64,000 nucleotides of DNA from an uncultured Lachnospiraceae bacterium (GTDB lineage Bacteria > Bacillota > Clostridia > Lachnospirales > Lachnospiraceae): contig CANOCU010000003.1 of assembly GCA_947564645.1 (NCBI GenBank), positions 3,934 through 67,933 of the forward strand, in the 5' to 3' direction. The notes beneath the pieces are model-generated. The model was given only the letters and a program-made list of their open reading frames with translations, made no database searches and had not been told where the DNA came from. Positions 33,457 to 50,462 of the stretch are shown here, piece by piece. A program made the position numbers and the translations under genes. Every line of letters begins with the position of its first letter. Position 1 is the stretch's first letter.

Positions 33457-34557
33457 TCACGTAAAGAACAGCCGCCCGGTATTTTCGGAAAGACATACGT
33501 TCTCCGGGATATGGCCTCTGCTGACATGCCGGATCATCCGTTCCACTTCCGGGATCATATTGACCGGCCGAACGGTAACCTGGGGATGTTCTCGTGTAAA
33601 CACCCGGAATATCTCATCCGCAAATCCCTGTCCCATCAATTCAACTCTGCTGAAATCCAAAACTACCTCCTTAAATTCATCCAGCCGGTTGCAGATCCGC
33701 CTGGCCTGTGACCGCGCTACCGGTTCTCCTGACAGACATGCCTCCTTCACCGGTATCCTCGTGCGTATAAATCCCTCATCTATATCCGTATACATGTCAA
33801 ACACCTCCGAAAGCTTCCTGGATGTTTCATTTTCCAGTGTCATCATGACCAGCGTGCCGATATCCTGCAGTCGGGAAACATATGCCAACAGCCGGTGCTC
33901 TATGACTTTCATATCCTGCCCGTATCCGAATTTATAAATTCTCGCGTCTGACCAGATCCCAAATTCTGACATTACCTTCGATGAAAAAAAGATACCTTCA
34001 CCGGAATGTCTGCTCCTGTCACTTGTAATCTTTCCTTTATACAACTCAATCAATGCATCTCCGTAATCAGGGGTATCCCATCCGTTCTCCTCCATATATT
34101 CTAATAAAGTCTGAAAGATTCCTACCCCGTTATCTGCGATCACAACGCTGCTGTTCAGCGCATTCGTCCTTACAATAATACGTATTCTGTCACCCCTTGC
34201 ATGTTCGATCGCGTTATTTAATATTTCGGCGCAGGCATATTGCCAGATTCTCCTCGCGTTCTCATTGCAGCCGCTCAGTTCCTTCTCTATATGCAGCGCA
34301 TATAAGCGATCCTCTTCCAGCCTGTTCCTTTTTAAATCTATCTGCTCTTCCTTTACATGCTCTATCAGTCGATATTGACAGTCTGCCTTCACGTCTTTCA
34401 TGATCGCTTTACATTCGATTGCTTTATCTATAAATTCCCCTACAGACTCCGGCGATATATCGAAATTATCCATCGTTTTGTCAATAAAGTCTCTATCGTT
34501 TACTGCAATCTTGCTGAGAATGTATTTCCTGATCTCTTCTCTCTTCCTATGATCCAA
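33457..34557 (-). CDS. HATPase_c + DUF4325 (STAS-like) protein
   Basis: EILNNAIEHA, DNGVGIF, GEGIFFS; C-terminal SRSQARRI...VVLDFSRVELMGQGFADEIFR. Confidence 0.75.
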   Translation of the reverse strand: MDHRKREEIRKYILSKIAVNDRDFIDKTMDNFDISPESVGEFIDKAIECKAIMKDVKADCQYRLIEHVKEEQIDLKRNRLEEDRLYALHIEKELSGCNENARRIWQYACAEILNNAIEHARGDRIRIIVRTNALNSSVVIADNGVGIFQTLLEYMEENGWDTPDYGDALIELYKGKITSDRSRHSGEGIFFSSKVMSEFGIWSDARIYKFGYGQDMKVIEHRLLAYVSRLQDIGTLVMMTLENETSRKLSEVFDMYTDIDEGFIRTRIPVKEACLSGEPVARSQARRICNRLDEFKEVVLDFSRVELMGQGFADEIFRVFTREHPQVTVRPVNMIPEVERMIRHVSRGHIPENVCLSENTGRLFFT

Positions 34558-41539: not shown

Positions 41540-42457
41540 TCAATGACTTAAGCCCTTCATTTTTATTTCAAATTCCGAAATGCTGGTTGCTGACGCTGCG
41601 CATCTGAGCCATCTGCCCAAAATATTTAAGTCCTTTTCCTGACTAATCTGCCGCATAAGTTTTGCAGGGATTTTTCCCAATTCTGCCAACAACTCCAAAA
41701 TATCTTCTATTTTCCCCTCAATTTTTCCCTCTATTTTCCCCTCAATTTTTCCTTCTGCTTTTCCCTCCTTTTTGCCTTCTTGCCTAATTCTGTCTACTAT
41801 CTCGCACATGATGTTTATCCCCTCCTTCTGCGCCTTATAAAAATTGACACGCTCGACGATTCGCGGAAACTCTTCCGTACAATAGAACGGTTCCGATTTT
41901 TTAATATACCGCAGCAGTTCATTCATTTTCTGAGAGCCTGTCGTATACTTCAGATTAAAGTATTTTTCACACACCCCATTCTCCAGGTTAGCTGCCGCAT
42001 CCGTCTTTCCTTCTACCGTTCTTCTAATTTGGTAAAATCCCTTCTTACCGCCGATGAAATCCGATTTGGTAATATACAGAATTGTCACGGAAGGCAGTTC
42101 ATCATACTCTTTCCCTTTATCCAATATGCTCATATCAATGCAGGATGTGTAATATCTGGTCCTTCGAAACGGTTCCGCTTCTTTGTACATCTGCAGCTCT
42201 ACATTGATCAGACCTCCGGTTACCGTCTCCGCCAGAATATCAAGCTGCACCGAATGGCTTATCAGGTTCCTGATCACATACTGCGTCTTCACATCCTTAA
42301 GCTGCAGGCCGGGATCCTGCATCAGAATCCGACATAGTTCCTGGCAAGCCGTCAGATCCTCAAACACTTTGCCGGCAAAAAGATCGCTTGTCAGGTTAAA
42401 CTCCTGTATCCGCTCCCGCTTCTGCTCCAATGTTTCTGTCATTGCTATTCCATCCAT
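41540..42457 (-). CDS. Rpn-family (PD-(D/E)XK) recombination-promoting nuclease, copy 1
   Basis: SDLFAGKVF, VQLDILA...INVELQ, RTRYY; C-terminal (EGKI)n repeats. Confidence 0.88.
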   Translation of the reverse strand: MDGIAMTETLEQKRERIQEFNLTSDLFAGKVFEDLTACQELCRILMQDPGLQLKDVKTQYVIRNLISHSVQLDILAETVTGGLINVELQMYKEAEPFRRTRYYTSCIDMSILDKGKEYDELPSVTILYITKSDFIGGKKGFYQIRRTVEGKTDAAANLENGVCEKYFNLKYTTGSQKMNELLRYIKKSEPFYCTEEFPRIVERVNFYKAQKEGINIMCEIVDRIRQEGKKEGKAEGKIEGKIEGKIEGKIEDILELLAELGKIPAKLMRQISQEKDLNILGRWLRCAASATSISEFEIKMKGLSH

Positions 42458-42610
42458 TGTAAACCTCCCTTATTAATTTACTGCAGGAGTCTGTTACAAT
42501 GTATGAAAAAGAGAAATTGATCCCTGATCCTTCTCTGGAATCAAACCCAATATTTTATGATAACAGTCCTGCCAAACAAATGTGAATCTTCGGCAGAACT
42601 GCCTGACTGC
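42033..42610. repeat. 578-bp direct repeat, copy 1 (5' half of rpn plus upstream region)
   Basis: Matches 45135-45712 at a constant 3102-bp offset; only 2 mismatches seen by eye. Confidence 0.92.
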
Positions 42611-42784
42611 ACTCATGATGCCGCCTATAAAACCTCATAAAACAGATGTATTTAGATTTTATGCTTCAAAACGTGCACATTAAAGAATCAAGATTTGTTT
42701 AATGAAAGAAGTATGTGAAACTGCACTGATTTACCGCAGTTTCACATACCGATTATATCAAATTACTTATGCGACAACTAGCTA

Positions 42785-43843
42785 TTATCTTTCTCTGTCA
42801 CATAATACAATTTCGGGTCTGATCGGACACCCACCCATACAATGTTTCCGGTTATCGCAGTTCGGACACGCCGTTCTGAATCTATCCCTAAAATCCTCGA
42901 ATTTCTTACTGTTCCAAGCCTCTTCGATTGTATGCGTTTTTAAATCCACCGCCCATCTCTGCTCCTGGTTGTCAAAGCTGCATGGCAGCATTTTCATATC
43001 TGCTGTGACATAGGCAGACCATCTTGCTCCTTCACATGTGTCCAAACTGTCTGTGTCAATAATACCCGGATGATTCAGTAGTGCTGGCACCGTACATGAA
43101 TCAAAACCTATCTTATAGCCGGAAGCTCCCGAACTGATATACTGTATCAGGTGGATAAACTCCTGATTATCCTGCCCAATCACATTGTCAGGAGAACCCA
43201 GTCCTACCGGCTTATGCAGTAAAAAGATAATGGCATTGATCCCCTCAGGAAAACTGTGTTCCTCCAACCTTTCCAAAGCCTCTGCAACAGTATTCTTACT
43301 TAGAACATAGTGAATGTTCGTTTTAACCCCGAATGCTGTCAGCAACTCTATTGCATGCAGTGTGTATTCACTTCTATACCAACTGACTGCAACCGCTCCG
43401 CAATAGTTACGGCATAATTTCGCAATACTTTCTGTCATACCCAGACCGGAAGTGGTAAAGTTGGCTACAATCCCCGACTCTTTACATACTGCAAGGATCT
43501 CCTCGAAATCTTCATGCTGATCCGGATCCCCACATCCTCCCAGTGCAAACTGATAGGTCCTGCCTTTACACTGCCCGGCGATCGTTTTAAAATCCTGCAG
43601 ACACATATTAGGCCGATCAGAATGCAGGCCATCCTGATAACACTCAACACCTGCCTTCATACACAACCCGCTCTTCCCATGCCTGCAATGTCCCATAATA
43701 CCCACATCCAGCAGTTCAGGAAAGGAACTCATAAAAGGGTCTTCCCCGGTATCTTTTCCTGAGATAATTATACCCGTGCGCAGATACTTCCCGGTTTTTT
43801 CATCAAAAAAGGTCATAAACTCTTTTTCTCTTCGTATTTTCAT
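42785..43843 (-). CDS. Radical SAM/SPASM-domain protein with non-canonical cluster motif
   Basis: GIMGHC-x7-C-x6-CYQ, ALGGCGDP, NFTTSG, and a SPASM-like CEGA...LPC...CPNC...CMGGC...C. Confidence 0.82.
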   Translation of the reverse strand: MKIRREKEFMTFFDEKTGKYLRTGIIISGKDTGEDPFMSSFPELLDVGIMGHCRHGKSGLCMKAGVECYQDGLHSDRPNMCLQDFKTIAGQCKGRTYQFALGGCGDPDQHEDFEEILAVCKESGIVANFTTSGLGMTESIAKLCRNYCGAVAVSWYRSEYTLHAIELLTAFGVKTNIHYVLSKNTVAEALERLEEHSFPEGINAIIFLLHKPVGLGSPDNVIGQDNQEFIHLIQYISSGASGYKIGFDSCTVPALLNHPGIIDTDSLDTCEGARWSAYVTADMKMLPCSFDNQEQRWAVDLKTHTIEEAWNSKKFEDFRDRFRTACPNCDNRKHCMGGCPIRPEIVLCDRER

Positions 43844-43851
43844 AGCCGTCT

Positions 43852-44226
43852 TTAATAGTCTAAGGATCCATCGATCGCTTCAAAGTTGTCACAGTCTGCT
43901 TCTTCCAGCTTTTTCCATAGATCAATAAACATTTCTGCCAGATCATACTCACATTCTTCAAAAATCACCTCACCATGATAAATGGCTTTCTCTTCCTTCA
44001 ATGCCTCCCTTATTTTATCCTGATCATCCTCATCAATATAATGATCTTCGAATGCCTTCTGAATTGTATCTTCATCGCTATCAGGCGTCAGCATCTTTCT
44101 GCCAAGCATATTTTCTTCAACATACTCAATAATTGCCTGCTTTTGTTTCTCTGTCAGTTCTCCTTTTCTTGCTAAAATGAAACTGCTGCTGCTCGAATTT
44201 GTCACAAAATCCGTCCTTACCTTCAT
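43852..44226 (-). CDS. Acidic protein with N-terminal MKVRTDFVTNSSSSSF poly-Ser motif
   Basis: Strong RBS AAGGAGG; 124 aa; ends 8 bp before the radical SAM gene. Confidence 0.85.
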   Translation of the reverse strand: MKVRTDFVTNSSSSSFILARKGELTEKQKQAIIEYVEENMLGRKMLTPDSDEDTIQKAFEDHYIDEDDQDKIREALKEEKAIYHGEVIFEECEYDLAEMFIDLWKKLEEADCDNFEAIDGSLDY

Positions 44227-44296
44227 GGTATATCTCCTCCTTCATGGGCCGTTATTTGGTTCTGATAAGAAGATACCACATTTTCAACTAGCTTTC

Positions 44297-44315
44297 ATTG
44301 GACTGTTAGTCCAAT
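44297..44315. promoter_or_regulatory. Perfect palindrome, candidate operator
   Basis: ATTGGACT-GTT-AGTCCAAT overlapping the HTH stop codon, next to an ATGAAA-17-TATCTT promoter with extended -10 TG (minus strand, 44270-44298). Confidence 0.6.
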
Positions 44316-44665
44316 CTGCTGCCATTATTTTGTATCATTGTCCAATAAAGGAAGAGCCTTTTTCCCGTAACGGAAATTTCCTCCTCTTCATAGGATGATT
44401 CGGGTACAATCAGCTCGTCCATGTGAACTTTCAATAGTCTGCTCAACACATACAAATGATCCAACGAAGGTAAAATGCGCCCCTTAAACCATCTGTATAT
44501 TGGCTGCGGACAAGATAACCGCAGTTTCTCCTGTATCTCTTTCACAGAATAACCCGCTGCAAAAATTTGATCCTTCAACCTCATTCCGGTTTTTACCATA
44601 TCGATATGCTGATAATCCTCTCTGTTCACAACTGCCGTCTTCCCCATTCTATCATCCCGTATCAT
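44306..44665 (-). CDS. Xre/Cro-type HTH transcriptional regulator
   Basis: SVKEIQEKLRLSCPQPIYRWFKGRILPSLDHLYVLSRLL; true start may be ATG 44647. Confidence 0.82.
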   Translation of the reverse strand: MIRDDRMGKTAVVNREDYQHIDMVKTGMRLKDQIFAAGYSVKEIQEKLRLSCPQPIYRWFKGRILPSLDHLYVLSRLLKVHMDELIVPESSYEEEEISVTGKRLFLYWTMIQNNGSRLD

Positions 44666-44704: not shown

Positions 44705-45559
44705 TCACATCCTTCTCTCAAACTCCAAGATACTGGATGCAGACGCTGCACATCTGAGCCATCTGCCCAAGACCTTCAGATCCGTTTCCTGCCTAATCCG
44801 CTGTGCGATCCTTGTCGGAATTTTACCCAGTTCTTCCAGCAGATCCAAAATGTCTTCTATTTTTCCTTCTATTTTTCCTTCCTTCTTAATCCTGTCCGCT
44901 ATTTCACACATAATATCTACACCTTCCCTTTGAATCTTATAGTAGTTGACTCTCTCCACAATTCGCGGAAATAATTTCGTCTGATAGTATGGGGTTGAAT
45001 TTTCCAAATATTGCAGCAACTCATTGATTTCCTTATACCTTGTCGGATACTTCAAATTGAAGTACTTCTCGTACAATCCATTATCCAAACCCGTTCCTTC
45101 CGGATTCTTTCTGTCTGTTTTTCTTCTGATTTGATAAAATCCCTTCTTACCGCCGATGAAATCCGATTTGGTAATATACAGGATTGTCACGGAAGGCAGT
45201 TCATAATACTCTTTCCCTTTATCCAATATGCTCATATCAATGCAGGATGTGTAATATCTGGTCCTTCGAAACGGTTCCGCTTCTTTGTACATCTGCAGCT
45301 CTACATTGATCAGACCTCCGGTTACCGTCTCCGCCAGAATATCAAGCTGCACCGAATGGCTTATCAGGTTCCTGATCACATACTGCGTCTTCACATCCTT
45401 AAGCTGCAGGCCGGGATCCTGCATCAGAATCCGACATAGTTCCTGGCAAGCCGTCAGATCCTCAAACACTTTGCCGGCAAAAAGATCGCTTGTCAGGTTA
45501 AACTCCTGTATCCGCTCCCGCTTCTGCTCCAATGTTTCTGTCATTGCTATTCCATCCAT
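44705..45559 (-). CDS. Rpn-family nuclease, copy 2
   Basis: N-terminal ~140 aa identical to copy 1 except D/Y; C-terminal half diverged. Confidence 0.88.
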   Translation of the reverse strand: MDGIAMTETLEQKRERIQEFNLTSDLFAGKVFEDLTACQELCRILMQDPGLQLKDVKTQYVIRNLISHSVQLDILAETVTGGLINVELQMYKEAEPFRRTRYYTSCIDMSILDKGKEYYELPSVTILYITKSDFIGGKKGFYQIRRKTDRKNPEGTGLDNGLYEKYFNLKYPTRYKEINELLQYLENSTPYYQTKLFPRIVERVNYYKIQREGVDIMCEIADRIKKEGKIEGKIEDILDLLEELGKIPTRIAQRIRQETDLKVLGRWLRCAASASSILEFERRM

Positions 45560-45712
45560 TGTAAACCTCCCTTATTAATTTACTGCAGGAGTCTGTTACA
45601 ATGTATGAAAAAGAGAAATTGATCCCTGATCCTTCTCTGGAATCAAACCCAATATTTTATGATAACAGTCCTGCCAAACAAATGTGAATCTTCGGCAGAA
45701 CTGCCTGACTGC
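45135..45712. repeat. 578-bp direct repeat, copy 2
   Basis: See 42033-42610. Confidence 0.92.
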
Positions 45713-45878
45713 GCCGGTAATGTCCCTCGAAAAGGTAGCATGAAAAAGTGCCTTCAAATATTTATGCACCGCACGCATTTAAGAATCAAGATTTGTTTTC
45801 ATAAAAGAAGTATATCATATAACTACTTTTACCGCAATAGATTTCGCAAATAAATTTAAACGTTTTTTCGTTCTCAAA

Positions 45879-46925
45879 TCAGATGCCTTTCTCAATCATT
45901 ACTTTATTTGTGAAAATCTCTTTATCCTGCATGGCCGCCAGCCCCTCCCCCAGCTTCTCAAAGGAGTACCTCTGCGTGATCTGTCCTGAGGGTCGTATCC
46001 TGCCTGTTCGTATCGCTTCGATCACAATATGCCAGTCATCATCCGCTTCTTTGGTAAAAGATGAATTCCACATGCCACGAAGTGTAAGCTGCCGACGCAG
46101 TACCTTCCAGTATATCTGTTTATCCAACTCAATATCCCCCGCCGGATTCCCCACCAGCACTACCTGTCCACCGGCCTTGGCCGAGCTGACAGCATTGCTT
46201 ATACTTTCCACCAGTCCAACACATTCAAAGATAAGATCTACCCCTTCTGCTCCTGTCTGTTCCATGATATAACCGACCGGATCCTTGTCCCTGCAGTTGC
46301 AAAATACACACTTGGCCAATCCGGTGACCAAATCCCTCTGCTCTTTTCTGGTTCCCACCGCAAAGATCTGCGAAATCCCCATGGAAGCCAGCCATTGTAT
46401 GATCAGCGTACCAATCGTCCCACAACCATAGACTGCCACACTCTTAATATCCGTCAGATCCACCTGTCTGATCGCATGTCTGGCGACACAGGCAGGTTCC
46501 AGCATTGCGGCATCCTCGAAGCTGACTTCGGGTGGCAGCTCGATCAGATTCCAGACCGGAACCGCCACATATTCGGCAAAGCCGCCGTCTGTCCTGGATC
46601 CCAGATAATTATAAGACCGGCACATCTCATACGCCTTTGCCTTACATGACTCACACTTCATACAGGGAATCAGCGGAAATACACCAACTCTTTTTCCAAG
46701 CAGCGCTCCATGCGCTTCCGACCCGACTTCCCGTACGATCCCGGCAAATTCATGTCCGGGCACCGTCGGAAAATGATAGGTTCCGGTCTCAAAAATACGC
46801 GGAATGTCAGAACCGCAGATTCCGACATTGACCACCTCTATAAGCGCCTCGTCCTCATGAATCTGCGGTACCTGAATATCCTTATATGCCAGTTGTCCCA
46901 CTGCTTCCAATACATAAGCTTTCAT
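45879..46925 (-). CDS. Zn-dependent sugar-alcohol-phosphate dehydrogenase (galactitol-1-P DH-like)
   Basis: GICGSD, GHEFAG, structural Zn motif CMKCESC...C, LEPAC, YGCGTIG. Confidence 0.85.
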   Translation of the reverse strand: MKAYVLEAVGQLAYKDIQVPQIHEDEALIEVVNVGICGSDIPRIFETGTYHFPTVPGHEFAGIVREVGSEAHGALLGKRVGVFPLIPCMKCESCKAKAYEMCRSYNYLGSRTDGGFAEYVAVPVWNLIELPPEVSFEDAAMLEPACVARHAIRQVDLTDIKSVAVYGCGTIGTLIIQWLASMGISQIFAVGTRKEQRDLVTGLAKCVFCNCRDKDPVGYIMEQTGAEGVDLIFECVGLVESISNAVSSAKAGGQVVLVGNPAGDIELDKQIYWKVLRRQLTLRGMWNSSFTKEADDDWHIVIEAIRTGRIRPSGQITQRYSFEKLGEGLAAMQDKEIFTNKVMIEKGI

Positions 46926-46949
46926 AGCTGTCCTCTTATATTCATTGTA

Positions 46950-47636
46950 TTAGCCTCTGATCCACAATTTGCAGCGCTCCAGATCAAGCGGTGTGGTAAC
47001 CTTGAAATTCTGCTCATCTCCCGGAATCATGGCAATGTCCATTCCTGCCATGACTGCCGGTTCCGTAGAGCCATTGATCTTCTCAATAATATCCGGATTA
47101 AGCCTTTTATTCGCCCGATAATACTTAATCAGGTGAAATGCCTCCGGCGCCTGCCCCAGATAAACCTTATCCCGTTGCAAAAGGGACGTAACCCGTCTAT
47201 TCTCACCCAAATACACCGTATCCTTCATCTGCAGCACCGGCATCGCTCCCTCATGCTTCGCGCAGGCCGCCACACACGCAGAGATCAGGGATTTCGTGAC
47301 AAACGGCCTTACCGCATCATGAATAATAATAATATCCGACCCGCGCGCAGACGGCATGATAACATCCAACGCATTTATGATCGAATGCTGTCTGCTCGGT
47401 CCGGGCTTCGCAAATCCACTAAATTTCAGTAAAGCTGCCTCCGGCAGCTGCTTGTAGATCTTTTCACGCCACTGCTCGTCGGCAACAATCTGAATCGCAT
47501 CAATCTTCGGATGAGTACTGACTGCCTCCAGACAATGAGTAATGATCATCTTACCTTCTATCGATATGTATTGCTTCGGTATGTCACGCCCCAGGCGTTT
47601 TCCAATTCCCCCTGCCAGTATCAATGCAATGTTCAT
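46950..47636 (-). CDS. IspD/TarI-family cytidylyltransferase
   Basis: LAGGIGKRLG..IPKQY, IHDAVRPF, GQAPEAF, NFKVTTPLDL. Confidence 0.87.
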   Translation of the reverse strand: MNIALILAGGIGKRLGRDIPKQYISIEGKMIITHCLEAVSTHPKIDAIQIVADEQWREKIYKQLPEAALLKFSGFAKPGPSRQHSIINALDVIMPSARGSDIIIIHDAVRPFVTKSLISACVAACAKHEGAMPVLQMKDTVYLGENRRVTSLLQRDKVYLGQAPEAFHLIKYYRANKRLNPDIIEKINGSTEPAVMAGMDIAMIPGDEQNFKVTTPLDLERCKLWIRG

Positions 47637-47661
47637 AGCAGCCTCCCCCTTCGTTCTTCTT

Positions 47662-48345
47662 CTAAAACTTTAGTTTCCTGATATCCGCCAGAATCTCTCC
47701 GTAGGGCTTCTTCTTCCCAAATAGAAGCGTTGTTCCCAACACGAACCCGTCGATTCCCTTGGGAGCATAGGTGGCGATTCGGTCCGCACTGCAGGCGCCA
47801 TCCCAGTAGATCTGAAAGTTCATCTCCTCCTTCAGCGCCAACAGTCTGGTGATCTTCTCCCCGACATACGGCATAAACATCTGCCCCGCATTTCCGGGGT
47901 TTACCGTCATTACCAGAACCTTCTTCACGATCCGCAGCATCTCCATGACCGTCTCCACACTGGTGCCCGGATTGATCGCAATCCCCGGCGTCAGCCCGGC
48001 ATTGATAATCTTCTGCAGGGTTGTGGACGGATGATACTCCGCCTCCGGATGAATATAGATTGTATCCCCCTTACGAAGACGGTCTGTAAAAAGTTCTACC
48101 GTATGATTCGGATGTTCCACCATCAAATGTACATCAAGCGGCTTCTTCGTCGCAGAAGCAATATACGCCATATCATTTAATGACATGGCAAAATTTGGGA
48201 CATATCGTCCGTCCATAATGTCAATATGAAAGGAGTCGATCCCTCCCTTCTCCAAGTCCCGTACTTCCTTTTCCAGATTGCCATAATTAGCACACATCAT
48301 GGATGCCATCAGTTCAAAGCTCATACATCTCCCCTTCGCCTTCAT
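47662..48345 (-). CDS. Ribulose-phosphate 3-epimerase family protein (Rpe/AlsE-like)
   Basis: FHIDIMDGRYVPN, DVHLMV, VLVMTVNPG..GQ, WDG. Confidence 0.85.
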   Translation of the reverse strand: MKAKGRCMSFELMASMMCANYGNLEKEVRDLEKGGIDSFHIDIMDGRYVPNFAMSLNDMAYIASATKKPLDVHLMVEHPNHTVELFTDRLRKGDTIYIHPEAEYHPSTTLQKIINAGLTPGIAINPGTSVETVMEMLRIVKKVLVMTVNPGNAGQMFMPYVGEKITRLLALKEEMNFQIYWDGACSADRIATYAPKGIDGFVLGTTLLFGKKKPYGEILADIRKLKF

Positions 48346-48403
48346 AATTCAAAAAAGCCCGCTACCTAAAATGACCTACCATTAGTATAGCGGACTTTTT
48401 CGC

Positions 48404-48788
48404 TTAAGACAATCTATAACTGTGATAGACGTTACACTTTGTTCGTTTTATTTTCGTAAGCTCTTCTTCCGCCAAAAACAGATTGTACAGGCGTGTTTCA
48501 AAAATGCGGTTCGCCACCTGTATGCTCCCCTCCGTATTTACGATATATCCAAACATGAACGCCAGGCTCACTGCCGGTAAATCCGGATTATATGACACTC
48601 TTTTCCCCTGAAGTCAAATGCCTCGCGGCATTCGCCAAATACTCGTGCAAGCACGGTACTTGGCTCATTGCTCGCGGAAATAAAACTGCCTTAAGCATCT
48701 GTTTCATCTCCGAATATTCTTCTGGCTGGCGAACCATATAATGTTTCTGCGGATAGCATGCCCCTGTGATATTAAACCTACGCTTCAT
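48404..48788 (-). pseudogene. Internally deleted remnant of an AAA-like ATPase gene
   Basis: N-terminal MKRRFNITGACYPQKHYMV joined out of frame to YNPD...MFGYIVN...ANRIFETRLYNLFL; Walker motifs missing. Confidence 0.6.
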
Positions 48789-48905
48789 TTTCGTCCGTCC
48801 TTTTTGAATATTCCGTAAATCTATCGCCTGACTGTCGTTATTTATCTATTGTAGTCGATGAACAGCCGAAATACAATACAGAAATTTATAAGCGGACCTA
48901 CATCA

Positions 48906-50462
48906 TTATTGTTCCACTTTCGCAATGCCAAGCGACTCCAATATTCGCTGACAACTCTGATCATCTTGATACTTATGCATTTTCTCCCTTAACCTTCTTC
49001 TTTTATCCGCCATAATATCACACTGTCCTGCCGTCTCCTCTACAAAAGCACACACATCCTCAAATGTAAATATCTCCCTGCCCGGAAGCCAGTCCCTGAT
49101 ATTGTCAAAAACAAATCCCCGACTCTGCTCATATTCCTCTACATCTTCCAGCATAAAAGCGATTGGCCTGTCCAGAAGCATATAATCCACTGCCGCTGAG
49201 GAATAATCACTAATCAAGGCATCTGCCCAGCCAAGCAGGCGGTTGACCGGAATATCGTATTGAAAAAGGTCTTCATTTTCAAGCAAAAGGATATTACTGC
49301 AATCTTCACAATGCACCGTCTCCCTGTTCTGAAAGGGATGGAGCTTTATTAGCAACAGGATATCCTGCTCCCGTAAAATTGTATTCAACCACCTCATTTT
49401 CTCACGCGTGCTGACAACCGGCAGTCCAGTTTCCGATTCCAGCTCGTATTCATTCAGCTGTGCCAGTTTCTGCTCCGTAGAACGGAACGTCGGCAGCCAG
49501 AATAGGTACTTCTTTGCCGGCGGTATGCGAAGCTTCTGCCTGTCAGCCTCGTCCGGATGAAAAAGCCAGTCCTCCTTCGCATAACCGGTGACCAGGACCT
49601 GATCTGGCCTGAGCCCATAAATATCTGCATGAATATCCGCATATAAGTCACTGATCACCGTCGTGTACTCATAACGCTGCTCACAGCGCACAAAATTCAC
49701 CCGCGTCTTAAATCCGCAGCCATGCCAGAGCTGAACCCTGATCTGATCCTTTCTGCAGTTTCTGGCAAAGCCATAGGCATCCGTAAAAAATAGATACCTT
49801 GCAAGGCACAATGCCCGATAATAGGCATCTCTTTCTCCCTGCTTCTCAGAGACCGACCAGTCAAATGACAAGAATCTCACGTTCTCCACGGCACTGTATC
49901 TGTCAAATTCTGCCGGATCCTTGACAAACCACACCAGTTCATAGCTGTGATTAAGGCCCTCTGCAAGCGCATATTCAAACAGCGCCCTCGCATTATCCGC
50001 AAAGTCCATTCCCTTCACATAAGAGCCTGCATGCGGACCGCTGCGAAAGATGATCAGATTCTCCAACGGCCTCTTTTCGTAAATTCTCCGGTAATGCTCT
50101 TCGTATTCAGTCTCCCGATTGACGAAATAATAAATGTCCGCATCTAAGGTCCAGGCACTCTCATCCATAATTGCCGTAATCTTCTGAAATGCCTCCCGGT
50201 AGTAATCGCTGGTGATCACGATCACAGCCCGATCCTGGAAAGCCTGCCGTATGTCTATGATATCCCGTACTTCCAATACTCTGCCCCGAAACGTAAAGCA
50301 GCCCTTATTTCTCTCATTGGTGTCCACGATAAAAGAAATAGCATGCAACACATCATACCGGTCACACAACTCGGTCAGATAGGAAACAGACTTTTCGTAG
50401 AGGCAAATCTGTCTGCCTGCTATTGCCGCAATATTTTCCTCCATAAGCTTCCGTAACGTCAT
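48906..50462 (-). CDS. CDP-glycerol/ribitol glycerophosphotransferase family (TagF/TarF-like)
   Basis: VQLWHGCGFK, TGYAKEDWL, WLPTFRS, KLHP, LISDYSSAAVDYMLLDRP. Confidence 0.87.
   Translation of the reverse strand: MTLRKLMEENIAAIAGRQICLYEKSVSYLTELCDRYDVLHAISFIVDTNERNKGCFTFRGRVLEVRDIIDIRQAFQDRAVIVITSDYYREAFQKITAIMDESAWTLDADIYYFVNRETEYEEHYRRIYEKRPLENLIIFRSGPHAGSYVKGMDFADNARALFEYALAEGLNHSYELVWFVKDPAEFDRYSAVENVRFLSFDWSVSEKQGERDAYYRALCLARYLFFTDAYGFARNCRKDQIRVQLWHGCGFKTRVNFVRCEQRYEYTTVISDLYADIHADIYGLRPDQVLVTGYAKEDWLFHPDEADRQKLRIPPAKKYLFWLPTFRSTEQKLAQLNEYELESETGLPVVSTREKMRWLNTILREQDILLLIKLHPFQNRETVHCEDCSNILLLENEDLFQYDIPVNRLLGWADALISDYSSAAVDYMLLDRPIAFMLEDVEEYEQSRGFVFDNIRDWLPGREIFTFEDVCAFVEETAGQCDIMADKRRRLREKMHKYQDDQSCQRILESLGIAKVEQ

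What the first reader, a model, noticed from the sequence alone, without database searches (positions are those of the whole stretch)
42785..44665. Candidate new radical-SAM protein-modification system: Xre regulator + poly-Ser 'FVTNSSSSSF' protein + rSAM/SPASM
Seen: a compact unit (RBS AAGGAGG, 8-bp gap) encodes a 124-aa very acidic protein starting MKVRTDFVTNSSSSSFIL directly upstream of a radical SAM/SPASM enzyme, with an HTH gene and operator in front. Established: SPASM enzymes typically modify a peptide or protein encoded next door (anSME converts Ser/Cys to formylglycine; triceptide maturases crosslink aromatic-x-x motifs; epimerases). Inference: the N-terminal motif is the substrate or recognition tag. 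Its F-V-T triad fits an aromatic-x-x crosslink, and the Ser run fits oxidation or epimerisation. No peptidase or exporter is present, so the product may be a modified intracellular protein rather than a secreted RiPP. I recall similar MKxRxxFVxNSSSSSF N-termini on uncharacterised clostridial and phage proteins (unverified) and know of no assigned function.
Basis: partly seen in the sequence, partly recalled or inferred. Interest (0 to 1): 0.85.

Follow-up and report, generated by a model that had tools for sequence, protein, structure and literature searches.

The report
Radical-SAM enzyme with N-terminally tagged proteins
A three-gene cassette in this gut bacterium pairs an unusual radical-SAM/SPASM enzyme with a small acidic protein whose first 16 residues (MKxRxDFVTNSSSSSF) form an almost invariant tag; the same tag heads dozens of unrelated small proteins encoded next to the same enzyme in gut phages and in cultured T4-like Klebsiella phages, pointing to an undescribed tag-directed protein-modification system.

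Summary
On the minus strand lie an Xre-type HTH gene (44306-44665), a 124-aa acidic protein starting MKVRTDFVTNSSSSSF (43852-44226) and, 8 nt later, a SPASM-domain radical-SAM-like enzyme (42785-43843). Two Rpn nuclease paralogues bracket the unit.

The pairing is far beyond chance. In 80 bacterial genome loci the tagged protein sits next to the enzyme in 74, and 4 of the other 6 are cut by contig ends. In viral contigs the enzyme is followed on the same strand by 1-8 small ORFs that all begin with the tag. Their bodies fall into about 40 clusters, mostly unrelated by profile comparison and without Pfam matches. All six Ser codons occur at each Ser position, so selection acts on the peptide.

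Cultured Slopekvirus-type phages such as Klebsiella phage Miro carry a 27%-identical enzyme and two tagged proteins. The enzyme's closest solved fold is the anaerobic sulfatase maturase anSME.

Best reading (confidence about 0.6): the disordered N-terminal tag is the enzyme's recognition and modification site. The chemistry, the biological role and any defence function remain untested. I found no published description.

The parts
44306..44665 (-). Xre-family helix-turn-helix regulator (119 aa), a facultative third gene of the cassette
   Evidence: Pfam HTH_3 E 3e-5. PHROG transcriptional repressor families. Homologues lie upstream or downstream of the pair in roughly a third to a half of related bacterial loci.
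43852..44226 (-). Tagged protein: 124 aa, pI 4.28, an alpha/beta body with a disordered N-terminal tail
   Evidence: 185 close homologues. 1337 clusters at 50% identity match its profile. AF2 pLDDT is 78 overall, with residues 1-12 below 50. No Pfam, NCBIfam, PHROG, PADLOC, PDB-sequence or PDB-fold match.
44176..44226 (-). The tag: codons 1-17, MKVRTDFVTNSSSSSFI. The strict core is N10-S11-S12-S13.
   Evidence: Invariant or nearly so in A1, A2 and A4. Across 41 unrelated tagged proteins the only invariant columns are M1 T9 N10 S11 S12 S13. Codon usage shows selection on the peptide.
44236..44242 (-). Ribosome-binding site AAGGAGG, 9 nt upstream of the tagged protein's ATG
   Evidence: Read directly from the sequence.
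42785..43843 (-). Radical-SAM-like / SPASM enzyme (352 aa); its start codon lies 8 nt after the tagged gene's stop
   Evidence: SPASM E 9e-7. phrog_7293 E 2e-24. 4284 homologues. AF2 pTM 0.77. Best PDB folds are anSMEcpe 4k38 (E 7e-9), PqqE, CteB and SuiB.
43640..43687 (-). Expanded cluster-binding loop C53-x7-C61-x6-C68-Y69, in place of CxxxCxxC
   Evidence: Conserved as GHCxHGKxGLCxxxGVECYQ in 40 homologues. In distant relatives the spacing varies, and one (L105) has the canonical Cx3Cx2C.
42800..43036 (-). SPASM domain with its seven-Cys pattern (C270...C288, C326-x2-C329-x5-C335-x3-C339, C348), preceded by C250
   Evidence: Pfam PF13186 matches residues 270-330 and TIGR04085 matches 272-342. 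The cysteines are invariant in A3.
42698..42762 (-). Hairpin (14-bp perfect stem core) just after the enzyme's stop codon; a possible operon terminator
   Evidence: Inverted repeat with 27-nt arms, 78% complementary. It was not called by the consensus terminator scan.
41540..42457 (-). Rpn-family PD-(D/E)XK nuclease / putative transposase, copy A (305 aa); downstream flank
   Evidence: PDDEXK_2 E 6e-8 and TIGR01784 at 52.8 bits against a 52.1 cutoff. Direct repeat 41568-42714 matches 44718-45813.
44705..45559 (-). Rpn-family paralogue, copy B (284 aa); upstream flank
   Evidence: PDDEXK_2 E 1.5e-7. The N-terminal half is 97% identical in DNA to copy A. Rpn-like genes also adjoin the cassette in L265, L020 and four further loci.

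Best explanation
The window carries the bacterial form of a two-component 'tag and modify' module with an optional Xre repressor. The enzyme is a radical-SAM/SPASM protein without a separate peptide-recognition (RRE) domain, built like the sulfatase maturase anSME. Its partners are small acidic cytoplasmic proteins that share only their first 16-17 residues, MK-x-R-x-D-F-V-T-N-S-S-S-S-S-F.

I propose the following, all inferred:
1. The flexible tail is threaded into the enzyme's barrel.
2. Reductive cleavage of SAM at the expanded three-Cys [4Fe-4S] loop gives a 5'-deoxyadenosyl radical.
3. The radical abstracts a hydrogen from a residue of the invariant N10-S13 core.
4. The two SPASM auxiliary clusters take up the electron. 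The product would be an oxidised (formylglycine-type carbonyl), epimerised or cross-linked tag.
5. The modification gives a common property to otherwise unrelated effector bodies.

In phages one enzyme serves an operon of up to eight different tagged proteins. In bacteria it serves a single protein under HTH control.

Shown: gene order, the two-way genomic coupling, peptide-level selection on the tag, unrelated bodies, and the enzyme's fold class. Inferred: binding, the site, the chemistry and the biological role.
For: 1. Tag-seeded searches find the enzyme adjacent in 74 of 80 bacterial genome loci. Four of the six exceptions are contig ends. They also find it within 8 kb in 60 of 72 viral loci.
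2. Enzyme-seeded searches find tagged ORFs in 18 of 19 viral loci and 74 of 80 viral loci. All 247 tagged ORFs there are on the enzyme's strand. The same holds in 3 of 3 bacterial loci.
3. No other gene is broadly conserved beside the pair.
4. 221 unique phage tagged ORFs fall into 40 body clusters. hhalign between tag-less bodies is mostly below 25% probability. No body has a Pfam match. Across 41 representatives, mean column identity is 12% and only M1 T9 N10 S11 S12 S13 are invariant.
5. There are 274 distinct coding sequences of the tag. All six Ser codons, both AGY and TCN, occur at each Ser position. Selection is therefore on the peptide, not on a DNA or RNA element.
6. The tag is predicted to be disordered (pLDDT below 50 for residues 1-12) on a confident body.
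7. The enzyme's best structural matches are anSMEcpe with bound peptide, then PqqE, CteB and SuiB. All of these modify peptides or proteins.
8. An independent, distant clade keeps the association. Slopekvirus-type phages have a 27%-identical enzyme plus two proteins starting MKIRSGFVSNSSSSSF.
9. The tag stays 14/16 identical while the enzyme drops to 27% identity. That is expected for a chemically transformed core rather than a co-evolving docking leader.
Against: No chemical evidence exists, and nothing here shows binding or a mass change.

The enzyme lacks CxxxCxxC, and Pfam Radical_SAM does not reach significance for the window protein, so SAM cleavage is assumed. Support for that assumption comes only from relatives with Cx7Cx2C and a canonical Cx3Cx2C loop, and from PF04055 hits in close homologues.

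Two bacterial orphans have a tagged gene but no enzyme within 5 kb. In Miro the tagged genes lie 20-25 kb from the enzyme. The phyletic match among cultured phages amounts to one clade, so it counts as a single event.

The structure models were built from shallow alignments (29 and 40 sequences).
Confidence: 0.6

Rival explanations
1. Docking-tag (adaptor) model. The tag is not modified. It anchors exchangeable specificity or regulatory subunits to the enzyme, for example by beta-strand addition to the enzyme's conserved N-terminal beta-hairpin region. The enzyme then acts on something the variable bodies recruit, such as host proteins, nucleic acid or a small molecule.
For: The same genomic coupling fits this model. 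One enzyme with many different bodies suits interchangeable adaptors. The enzyme has a conserved roughly 45-residue N-terminal extension with three predicted strands that anSME lacks.
Against: A docking peptide would be expected to co-evolve with its receptor. Here the tag stays nearly identical while the enzyme diverges to 27% identity, and very few residues of the N-terminal extension are invariant (G18, D35, P36, P42, D46). Five consecutive invariant serines are hard to explain by binding alone. The closest folds all take the peptide into the active site.
Confidence: 0.2
2. The tag has a function that does not need the enzyme, such as a targeting, packaging or stability signal comparable to the capsid-targeting sequence shared by T4 internal proteins. 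The rSAM gene merely travels in the same accessory module and has a different substrate, for instance a nucleotide or DNA modification.
For: Arrays of diverse small proteins sharing an N-terminal signal are known from T4-type phages (my own knowledge, not tested here). In Miro the tagged genes are 20-25 kb from the enzyme. The phage loci sit among nucleotide- and RNA-metabolism genes such as a PurZ-like enzyme, RNA ligase and PNK. Slopekviruses are reported to carry an unknown DNA modification (title of PMC5219037).
Against: The minimal bacterial cassette has only the tagged protein, the enzyme and sometimes an HTH, with no virion or nucleotide-metabolism genes, in many unrelated chromosomal contexts. 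A coupling that survives transfer between gut Firmicutes, other phyla, gut phages and enterobacterial T4-like phages is hard to explain without a direct functional link.
Confidence: 0.1
3. Scaffold model. The tag is a precursor from which a small molecule or cofactor is built and excised, as PQQ is from PqqA or mycofactocin from MftA. The bodies would be carriers.
For: PqqE and MftC models are among the weak NCBIfam and PDB hits. An invariant core is typical of cofactor precursors.
Against: No protease or further tailoring enzyme is conserved. Forty different carrier bodies, up to eight per phage, would be pointless for a single small product. The precursors are folded proteins of 80-260 aa.
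Confidence: 0.05
4. Common-fold model. All tagged proteins are extremely diverged members of one fold, and their first strand and Ser-rich loop form a ligand-binding (for example phosphate-binding) site. The enzyme would make the ligand.
For: A strand-loop-strand pattern (DFVT - NSSSSS - FILA) is plausible. A few body clusters are distantly related: C1-C10 at 97%, and C0 to the window family at 72%.
Against: Most body pairs show no profile similarity. Lengths range from 46 to 262 aa and include zinc-ribbon types. The tag is modelled as disordered, and the body has no fold match.
Confidence: 0.05

Closest known systems
Anaerobic sulfatase-maturating enzyme (anSME/AtsB) and its sulfatase substrates
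   Same: It is the best structural match (4k38, E 7e-9, TM 0.58). Size and architecture are the same: an rSAM core plus a SPASM domain with two auxiliary clusters and no RRE domain. anSME acts on a short conserved Ser/Cys-containing motif in full-length proteins rather than on a leader-core peptide (established knowledge).
   Different: TIGR03942 scores 13 bits against a cutoff of 349. Sequence identity is about 16%. The substrate motif here is MKxRxDFVTNSSSSSF at the extreme N-terminus, not (C/S)xPxR. The cluster loop is Cx7Cx6C. The partners are unrelated small acidic proteins, not sulfatases. The enzyme also has an extra N-terminal extension of about 45 residues.
HXS anti-phage system (HxsA effector matured by the rSAM enzymes HxsB and HxsC; PMC13128918)
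   Same: An rSAM enzyme matures a protein effector, not a small peptide, in the context of phage-host conflict. Serine lies in the repeated motif. [quoted passage not shown]
   Different: [quoted passage not shown] Here there is one enzyme, no HxS repeats and no signal peptide, and the system is mostly phage-borne. No defence phenotype is known.
RiPP rSAM/SPASM maturases (PqqE, MftC, CteB, SuiB, triceptide and sactipeptide synthases), including leader families shared by many different cores
   Same: The enzyme superfamily is the same. The substrate is encoded next door, and one enzyme can serve several precursors that share a recognition sequence.
   Different: There is no RRE/PqqD-like domain and no protease or exporter. 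Here the conserved part is very probably the modified part, and the variable part is a folded protein of 80-260 aa. In RiPPs the leader is conserved and discarded while the short core varies.
QhpD/QhpC (an rSAM/SPASM enzyme that cross-links the small subunit of quinohemoprotein amine dehydrogenase)
   Same: A SPASM enzyme modifies a small protein subunit that stays a protein (my own knowledge, not tested here).
   Different: QhpD forms Cys-Asp/Glu thioethers. The tag has no cysteine and there is no dehydrogenase context.
Capsid-targeting sequence of T4 internal proteins
   Same: A short conserved N-terminal sequence is shared by an array of otherwise unrelated small phage proteins (my own knowledge).
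   Different: That signal is recognised by the prohead scaffold and protease, not by an rSAM enzyme. The present tag also occurs in bacterial cassettes that have no virion genes.

Membership tests
Radical SAM superfamily (PF04055) | CxxxCxxC motif binding the SAM-cleaving [4Fe-4S] cluster | tested here: not met
   The window enzyme has C53-x7-C61-x6-C68. The loop is homologous to the canonical one. In an alignment of distant relatives the first Cys and the last Cys-Tyr are invariant, while the spacing varies: Cx5Cx6C, Cx7Cx8C, Cx7Cx2C in phage Miro, and canonical Cx3Cx2C in L105.
Radical SAM superfamily (PF04055) | Significant match to the family profile | tested here: inconclusive
   PF04055 is not reported for the window protein. 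It matches the 70%-identical homologue P0227 at E 5.6e-8 and is precomputed for several other homologues.
Radical SAM superfamily (PF04055) | Partial TIM-barrel fold with a GGE-like SAM-binding motif | tested here: met
   The AF2 model has pTM 0.77. 47 PDB matches have E <= 0.001, nearly all rSAM enzymes. The invariant ALGG motif at residues 100-103 aligns with the GGE position.
SPASM subfamily (PF13186 / TIGR04085) | C-terminal seven-Cys motif (Cx9-17[GD]x4C ... Cx2Cx5Cx3C ... C) for two auxiliary clusters | tested here: met
   PF13186 scores 29.5 bits against a 21.5 cutoff, and TIGR04085 scores 29 against 27. C270, C288, C326, C329, C335, C339 and C348 are invariant in A3.
Anaerobic sulfatase maturase (TIGR03942) | Family profile above cutoff, and a (C/S)xPxR sulfatase substrate | tested here: not met
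   13 bits against a cutoff of 349. The partner protein has no such motif and there is no sulfatase gene nearby.
Classical RiPP cluster | Short precursor with leader and core, an RRE domain or PqqD partner, and a leader peptidase and/or exporter | tested here: not met
   Partners are 80-262 aa. No RRE or PqqD match was found. Only the enzyme, the tagged ORFs and sometimes an HTH are conserved.
HXS system (HxsA-D) | His-Xaa-Ser repeat effector, two rSAM enzymes and HxsD | tested here: not met
   There are no HxS repeats in the 124-aa protein. There is a single enzyme gene, and no Hxs family appears among the NCBIfam hits.
Known anti-phage defence systems (PADLOC-DB v2) | Match of a core gene to a defence-system model | tested here: not met
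   No hit for the enzyme or the tagged protein. The HTH gives only weak RmrA-like hits.
Rpn family (TIGR01784), for the flanking genes only | Family profile above cutoff | tested here: met
   Copy A scores 52.8 bits against a 52.1 cutoff. Copy B scores 45.5, below the cutoff, but is 97% identical to A over the N-terminal half in DNA.

The most novel reading that the evidence does not exclude
A single radical-SAM/SPASM enzyme installs a so-far unknown post-translational modification on a universal 16-residue N-terminal tag. In this way it activates or arms dozens of unrelated small acidic effector proteins used in phage-host conflict. These would be counter-defence or host-takeover proteins in gut phages and T4-like Klebsiella phages. 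The bacterial Xre-controlled single-effector cassettes, as in this window, would be domesticated or defensive derivatives. The tag would then be both a new enzyme chemistry and a sequence flag that identifies a large hidden class of phage effectors.
Probability: 0.35. Interest if true: 0.9.

Novelty: new variant of a known kind. Interest (0 to 1): 0.8.

Why it matters
If the tag is modified, this would be a new radical-SAM protein modification. It has an unusual cluster-binding loop and a substrate logic unlike RiPPs: the tag is invariant and probably modified, while the folded bodies vary.

The tag is a simple sequence handle. It marks more than 40 families of small acidic phage proteins of unknown function, about 1300 clusters at 50% identity, as one functional class. 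They are encoded in phage accessory regions where counter-defence genes are usually found.

The system occurs in cultured, genetically tractable T4-like phages of Klebsiella, Enterobacter, Citrobacter, Cronobacter and E. coli, so it can be tested directly.

A short tag recognised by a single enzyme could also be useful for site-specific protein modification, as the formylglycine 'aldehyde tag' has been.

Tried and rejected
- **Known-family searches for the 124-aa protein.** Pfam, NCBIfam, PHROGs and PADLOC gave only a sub-threshold BrxL_N hit (20.8 bits against 28.2), which I treat as chance. PDB sequence and fold searches gave nothing.
- **tblastn of the 124-aa protein against cultured phages.** No match. 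The likely reasons are that BLAST masks the Ser run and that the bodies differ. Six-frame regex scanning then found the tag in phage Miro.
- **C-terminal Tyr as a mycofactocin- or PQQ-like modification site** (the protein ends ...IDGSLDY). Rejected. In the wider family the last residue is Phe in several members (Tyr otherwise) and only L122 is invariant there.
- **Tag as a conserved DNA/RNA element or recombination site.** Rejected on codon diversity.
- **An operator near the HTH gene.** No inverted repeat was found, and the promoter scan was not above shuffles.
- **Extra conserved partner genes (protease, exporter, second enzyme).** None in bacterial or viral loci.
- **C-terminal extension of about 190 aa in 530-543-aa enzyme variants.** No Pfam match even at E <= 1.
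- **Literature searches** for the motif strings and for SPASM or rSAM together with phage terms found no description.
Full report
**What is in the window**

On the minus strand, in transcription order, lie five genes:
- an Rpn-family gene, 45559-44705;
- an Xre-type HTH gene, 44665-44306, 119 aa;
- a 124-aa gene, 44226-43852;
- a 352-aa gene, 43843-42785, starting 8 nt after the previous stop;
- a second Rpn gene, 42457-41540.

The 124-aa protein starts MKVRTDFVTNSSSSSFILARK and ends IDGSLDY. Its pI is 4.28. An AAGGAGG ribosome-binding site lies 9 nt upstream of its ATG.

The 352-aa protein matches the SPASM domain (Pfam E 9e-7; TIGR04085 above cutoff). It matches no specific NCBIfam equivalog: the best are W_rSAM_matur and PqqE at 30-34 bits against cutoffs near 380. 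It hits phrog_7293, of unknown function, over its full length at E 2e-24. Neither core gene matches a PADLOC defence model.

The two Rpn genes belong to a 1.1-kb direct repeat, 41568-42714 against 44718-45813. The wider neighbourhood is ordinary chromosome: an MMPL transporter, a GLUG-motif surface protein and ribitol-phosphate teichoic-acid genes. A hairpin follows the enzyme gene. I found no operator-like repeat near the HTH gene, and promoter-like sites are not above shuffled expectation.

**The small protein family**

The 124-aa protein has 185 close relatives, almost all 120-128 aa and none named. A profile search of 1.84 billion cluster representatives gives 1337 hits at E <= 0.001, but only 265 at E <= 1e-10. 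So about a thousand clusters match mainly through a short shared part.

Among relatives down to 36% identity, the N-terminus MK-x-R-x-D-F-V-T-N-S-S-S-S-x-F is invariant or nearly so. The rest averages 43% column identity. The C-terminal residue is usually Tyr but is Phe in several members. I therefore dropped a mycofactocin- or PQQ-like C-terminal site.

AlphaFold2 gives a confident alpha/beta body (pLDDT 78) with residues 1-12 below 50, that is, a free tail. The body has no PDB fold match.

**Coupling to the enzyme in bacteria**

A scan of one genome for each of 185,579 species found 228 stretches (genome loci) that encode a relative of the 124-aa protein. Most are Lachnospiraceae and Oscillospiraceae. 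Others are Selenomonadaceae, Synergistaceae, Desulfovibrionaceae, Coriobacteriales, Erysipelotrichaceae and Gastranaerophilales.

In the 80 loci retrieved, the enzyme gene is adjacent in 74, almost always directly downstream. Four of the six exceptions end at a contig edge. Two (L086, with a decayed tag, and L091) are true orphans. Some loci carry two tandem tagged paralogues.

Clustering all neighbouring ORFs shows only three recurrent families: the tagged protein, the enzyme, and an Xre HTH in roughly a third to a half of loci, either upstream or downstream. The surrounding genes differ from locus to locus.

Starting instead from three enzyme homologues, each has a tagged 124-aa ORF 9-12 nt upstream and an HTH_3 gene nearby. 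One also has a PDDEXK_2 (Rpn-like) gene next door, as in the window.

**The decisive observation: phages**

Scanning IMG/VR for FVTNSSSS found 199 stretches encoding the motif. Most lie on contigs of 35-500 kb and most match only residues 1-40 of the query.

In 60 of the 72 loci an enzyme homologue (40-61% identical in nearly all; 37% in L105) lies within 8 kb. It is followed by arrays of small ORFs, each of which begins with the same tag.

The 221 unique tagged ORFs are 46-262 aa long, with median pI 4.6; 95% are below pI 5.5. After removal of the tag they fall into 40 clusters. Profile-profile comparison of the 14 largest body clusters gives under 25% probability for nearly all pairs. The exceptions are C1-C10 at 97%, C0 to the window family at 72%, and C3 to the window family at 41%.

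No body matches Pfam. Ten of 41 representatives hit phrog_7397, of unknown function. Across the 41 representatives, mean column identity is 12% and the only invariant columns are M1, T9, N10, S11, S12 and S13.

Seeding on the enzyme gives the reverse test:
- 18 of 19 loci have a tagged ORF directly adjacent.
- 74 of 80 loci (from 153 found) have 1-8 tagged ORFs within 10 kb, all 247 on the enzyme's strand. Four of the six tag-less loci are cut just after the enzyme gene.

Apart from the enzyme and the tagged ORFs, no gene is shared by more than a lineage-specific subset of loci. One well-represented locus is clearly phage, with PurZ-like, RNA ligase, polynucleotide kinase and virion-protein PHROGs.

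**Selection acts on the peptide**

Among 421 tags there are 274 different 48-nt coding sequences. Every Ser position uses all six Ser codons, from both the AGY and TCN boxes, and Arg4 uses AGR and CGN. A conserved DNA or RNA element, or recent gene conversion, cannot explain this.

**Cultured phages**

The enzyme has 27%-identical, full-length homologues in 170 of 50,697 phage records. Nearly all (about 168) are T4-like phages of Klebsiella, Enterobacter, Cronobacter, Citrobacter, Escherichia, Raoultella and Buttiauxella.

In Klebsiella phage Miro this is CPT_Miro164, whose cluster loop is Cx7Cx2C. A six-frame scan of 49 kb around it found two proteins starting MKIRSGFVSNSSSSSF. They are CPT_Miro119 (171 aa) and CPT_Miro114 (156 aa), 20-25 kb away. 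These occur in 175 and 174 records, with the same genus breakdown as the enzyme.

That is a single clade, so it counts as one event. It is nonetheless an independent and distant recurrence of the association, and it offers an experimental system. [quoted passage not shown]

**The enzyme**

In 40 close homologues the sequence GHCxHGKxGLCxxxGVECYQ is conserved, as are the ALGG motif, the seven SPASM cysteines and C250.

In an alignment with distant relatives, the first Cys and the last Cys-Tyr are invariant while the middle Cys shifts. The spacings seen are Cx7Cx6C, Cx5Cx6C, Cx7Cx8C, Cx7Cx2C, and canonical Cx3Cx2C in L105. So this is an expanded version of the radical-SAM cluster loop. Pfam Radical_SAM reaches significance in some homologues but not in the window protein.

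The AF2 model (pTM 0.77) matches anSMEcpe best (4k38, with bound peptide, E 7e-9). PqqE, CteB, BtrN, SuiB and TigE follow. Like anSME, the enzyme has no RRE domain. Unlike anSME, it has a conserved N-terminal extension of about 45 residues with three short strands.

**Interpretation**

The tag shows several features together:
- an invariant, disordered N-terminal peptide, selected at the amino-acid level;
- attachment to unrelated folded bodies;
- two-way genomic coupling to one enzyme family across bacteria, uncultured phages and cultured T4-like phages;
- an enzyme whose nearest structural relatives thread a peptide into the active site.

The simplest reading is that the tag is the enzyme's recognition and modification site (confidence about 0.6). 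The tag remains 14/16 identical while the enzyme diverges to 27% identity. This argues that the tag is chemically transformed rather than merely bound. The strictly invariant N10-S13 is the most likely site. The type of reaction (oxidation to a carbonyl as in anSME, epimerisation or cross-linking) cannot be decided from sequence.

The rival explanations are:
- a docking tag on exchangeable adaptor subunits (0.2);
- an enzyme-independent targeting signal that merely co-travels with the enzyme (0.1);
- a scaffold for an excised small molecule (0.05);
- a single, very diverged ligand-binding fold (0.05).

**Biological role**

This remains open. The phage arrays lie in accessory regions beside RNA-repair and nucleotide-metabolism genes, and the proteins are small and acidic. 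Both features are typical of host-takeover or counter-defence proteins, but this is only an inference.

For the bacterial cassette there is no support for a defence function: there are no PADLOC hits and the contexts are not defence islands. A published precedent for an rSAM-matured protein effector in phage defence is the HXS system (PMC13128918). Its composition is different.

**Novelty**

No Pfam, NCBIfam or PADLOC family covers the tagged proteins, and the PHROG families are unannotated. Eight of my nine literature searches looked for a description, using the motif strings and combinations of SPASM or rSAM with phage terms, and found none. The library is incomplete, so an earlier description elsewhere cannot be excluded.

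I classify this as a new variant of a known kind: rSAM/SPASM maturation of genetically linked protein substrates. Three features are unusual: the expanded cluster loop, the invariant tag on variable folded bodies, and the one-enzyme-many-proteins operons in phages.

Noticed in passing
window 41540-42457 and 44705-45559; repeat 41706-41773: The two flanking Rpn paralogues differ in the number of a 12-nt tandem repeat encoding (E)GKIEGKIEGKIE near the C-terminus: four in-register copies in copy A and one in copy B. The whole 1.1-kb Rpn-plus-upstream segment is a direct repeat around the cassette. Rpn or PDDEXK-type genes also adjoin the cassette in other genomes (L265, L020, a 4-locus cluster, and an 8-locus cluster of ~565-aa proteins that I recognise by eye as PDDEXK-type; no domain search was run on it). 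They may be involved in moving it.
   Followed up: partly
proteins P0155, P0170, P0182, P0224; locus L267 4001-5632: Some bacterial enzyme homologues are 530-543 aa long. They carry a conserved C-terminal extension of about 190 aa (…VVIPHVIFKGKRSISWKEVEKYL…YDIQNIKKETRYP) that has no Pfam match even at E <= 1. By eye it resembles phage toxin-like nuclease modules, but this was not shown.
   Followed up: partly
window 43817-43843 (enzyme residues 1-9) compared with 44200-44226 (tag residues 1-9): The bacterial enzyme itself begins MKIRREKEF, resembling the start of the tag (MKVRTDF). The phage enzymes do not share this. It could be chance, or a pseudo-substrate or shared translation-start feature.
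   Followed up: no
L151 1-16153 and related viral loci: In one abundant gut-phage lineage the enzyme and tag array sit between a PurZ-like adenylosuccinate synthetase (which suggests a 2-aminoadenine genome) and an RNA ligase, nucleotidyltransferase and polynucleotide-kinase set. A LemA-like protein and a membrane protein lie between the enzyme and the array.
   Followed up: partly
tagged ORFs of L094-L164 (clusters C1, C6, C10, C11, C12, C32, C34): Many tagged proteins end in His-, Cys- or aromatic-rich C-termini (…YNHH, …ESHH, …ISRH, …GYCD, …FDYHY; the window family ends …L-x-Y/F). One large class has a CxxCG zinc-ribbon directly after the tag. A functional link between the N-terminal tag and the C-terminus is possible.
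   Followed up: no
L086 4878-5357; L091 4971-5363: Two bacterial loci carry a tagged gene with no enzyme within 5 kb. In L086 the tag has lost one serine (MIRNDYTTNSSSSF), which suggests decay after loss of the enzyme.
   Followed up: partly
L160, L162, L163, L105, L158: A tag variant with Lys at position 4 and Thr/Ala/Cys late in the Ser run (MKIK.DFVTNSSS[ST][SAC]F) occurs in some viral contigs. In L105 it accompanies the enzyme version with the canonical Cx3Cx2C loop. In L160, L162 and L163 no enzyme was detected within 8 kb.
   Followed up: partly
window 33457-34557: A 366-aa protein combines a histidine-kinase-like ATPase domain (HATPase_c_2) with a STAS-like DUF4325 domain. It is unrelated to the finding.
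   Followed up: no
window 45879-50462: A run of genes typical of ribitol-phosphate teichoic acid or capsule synthesis (zinc alcohol dehydrogenase, IspD-like cytidylyltransferase, ribulose-phosphate 3-epimerase, CDP-glycerol glycerophosphotransferase) lies immediately beside the cassette.
   Followed up: partly
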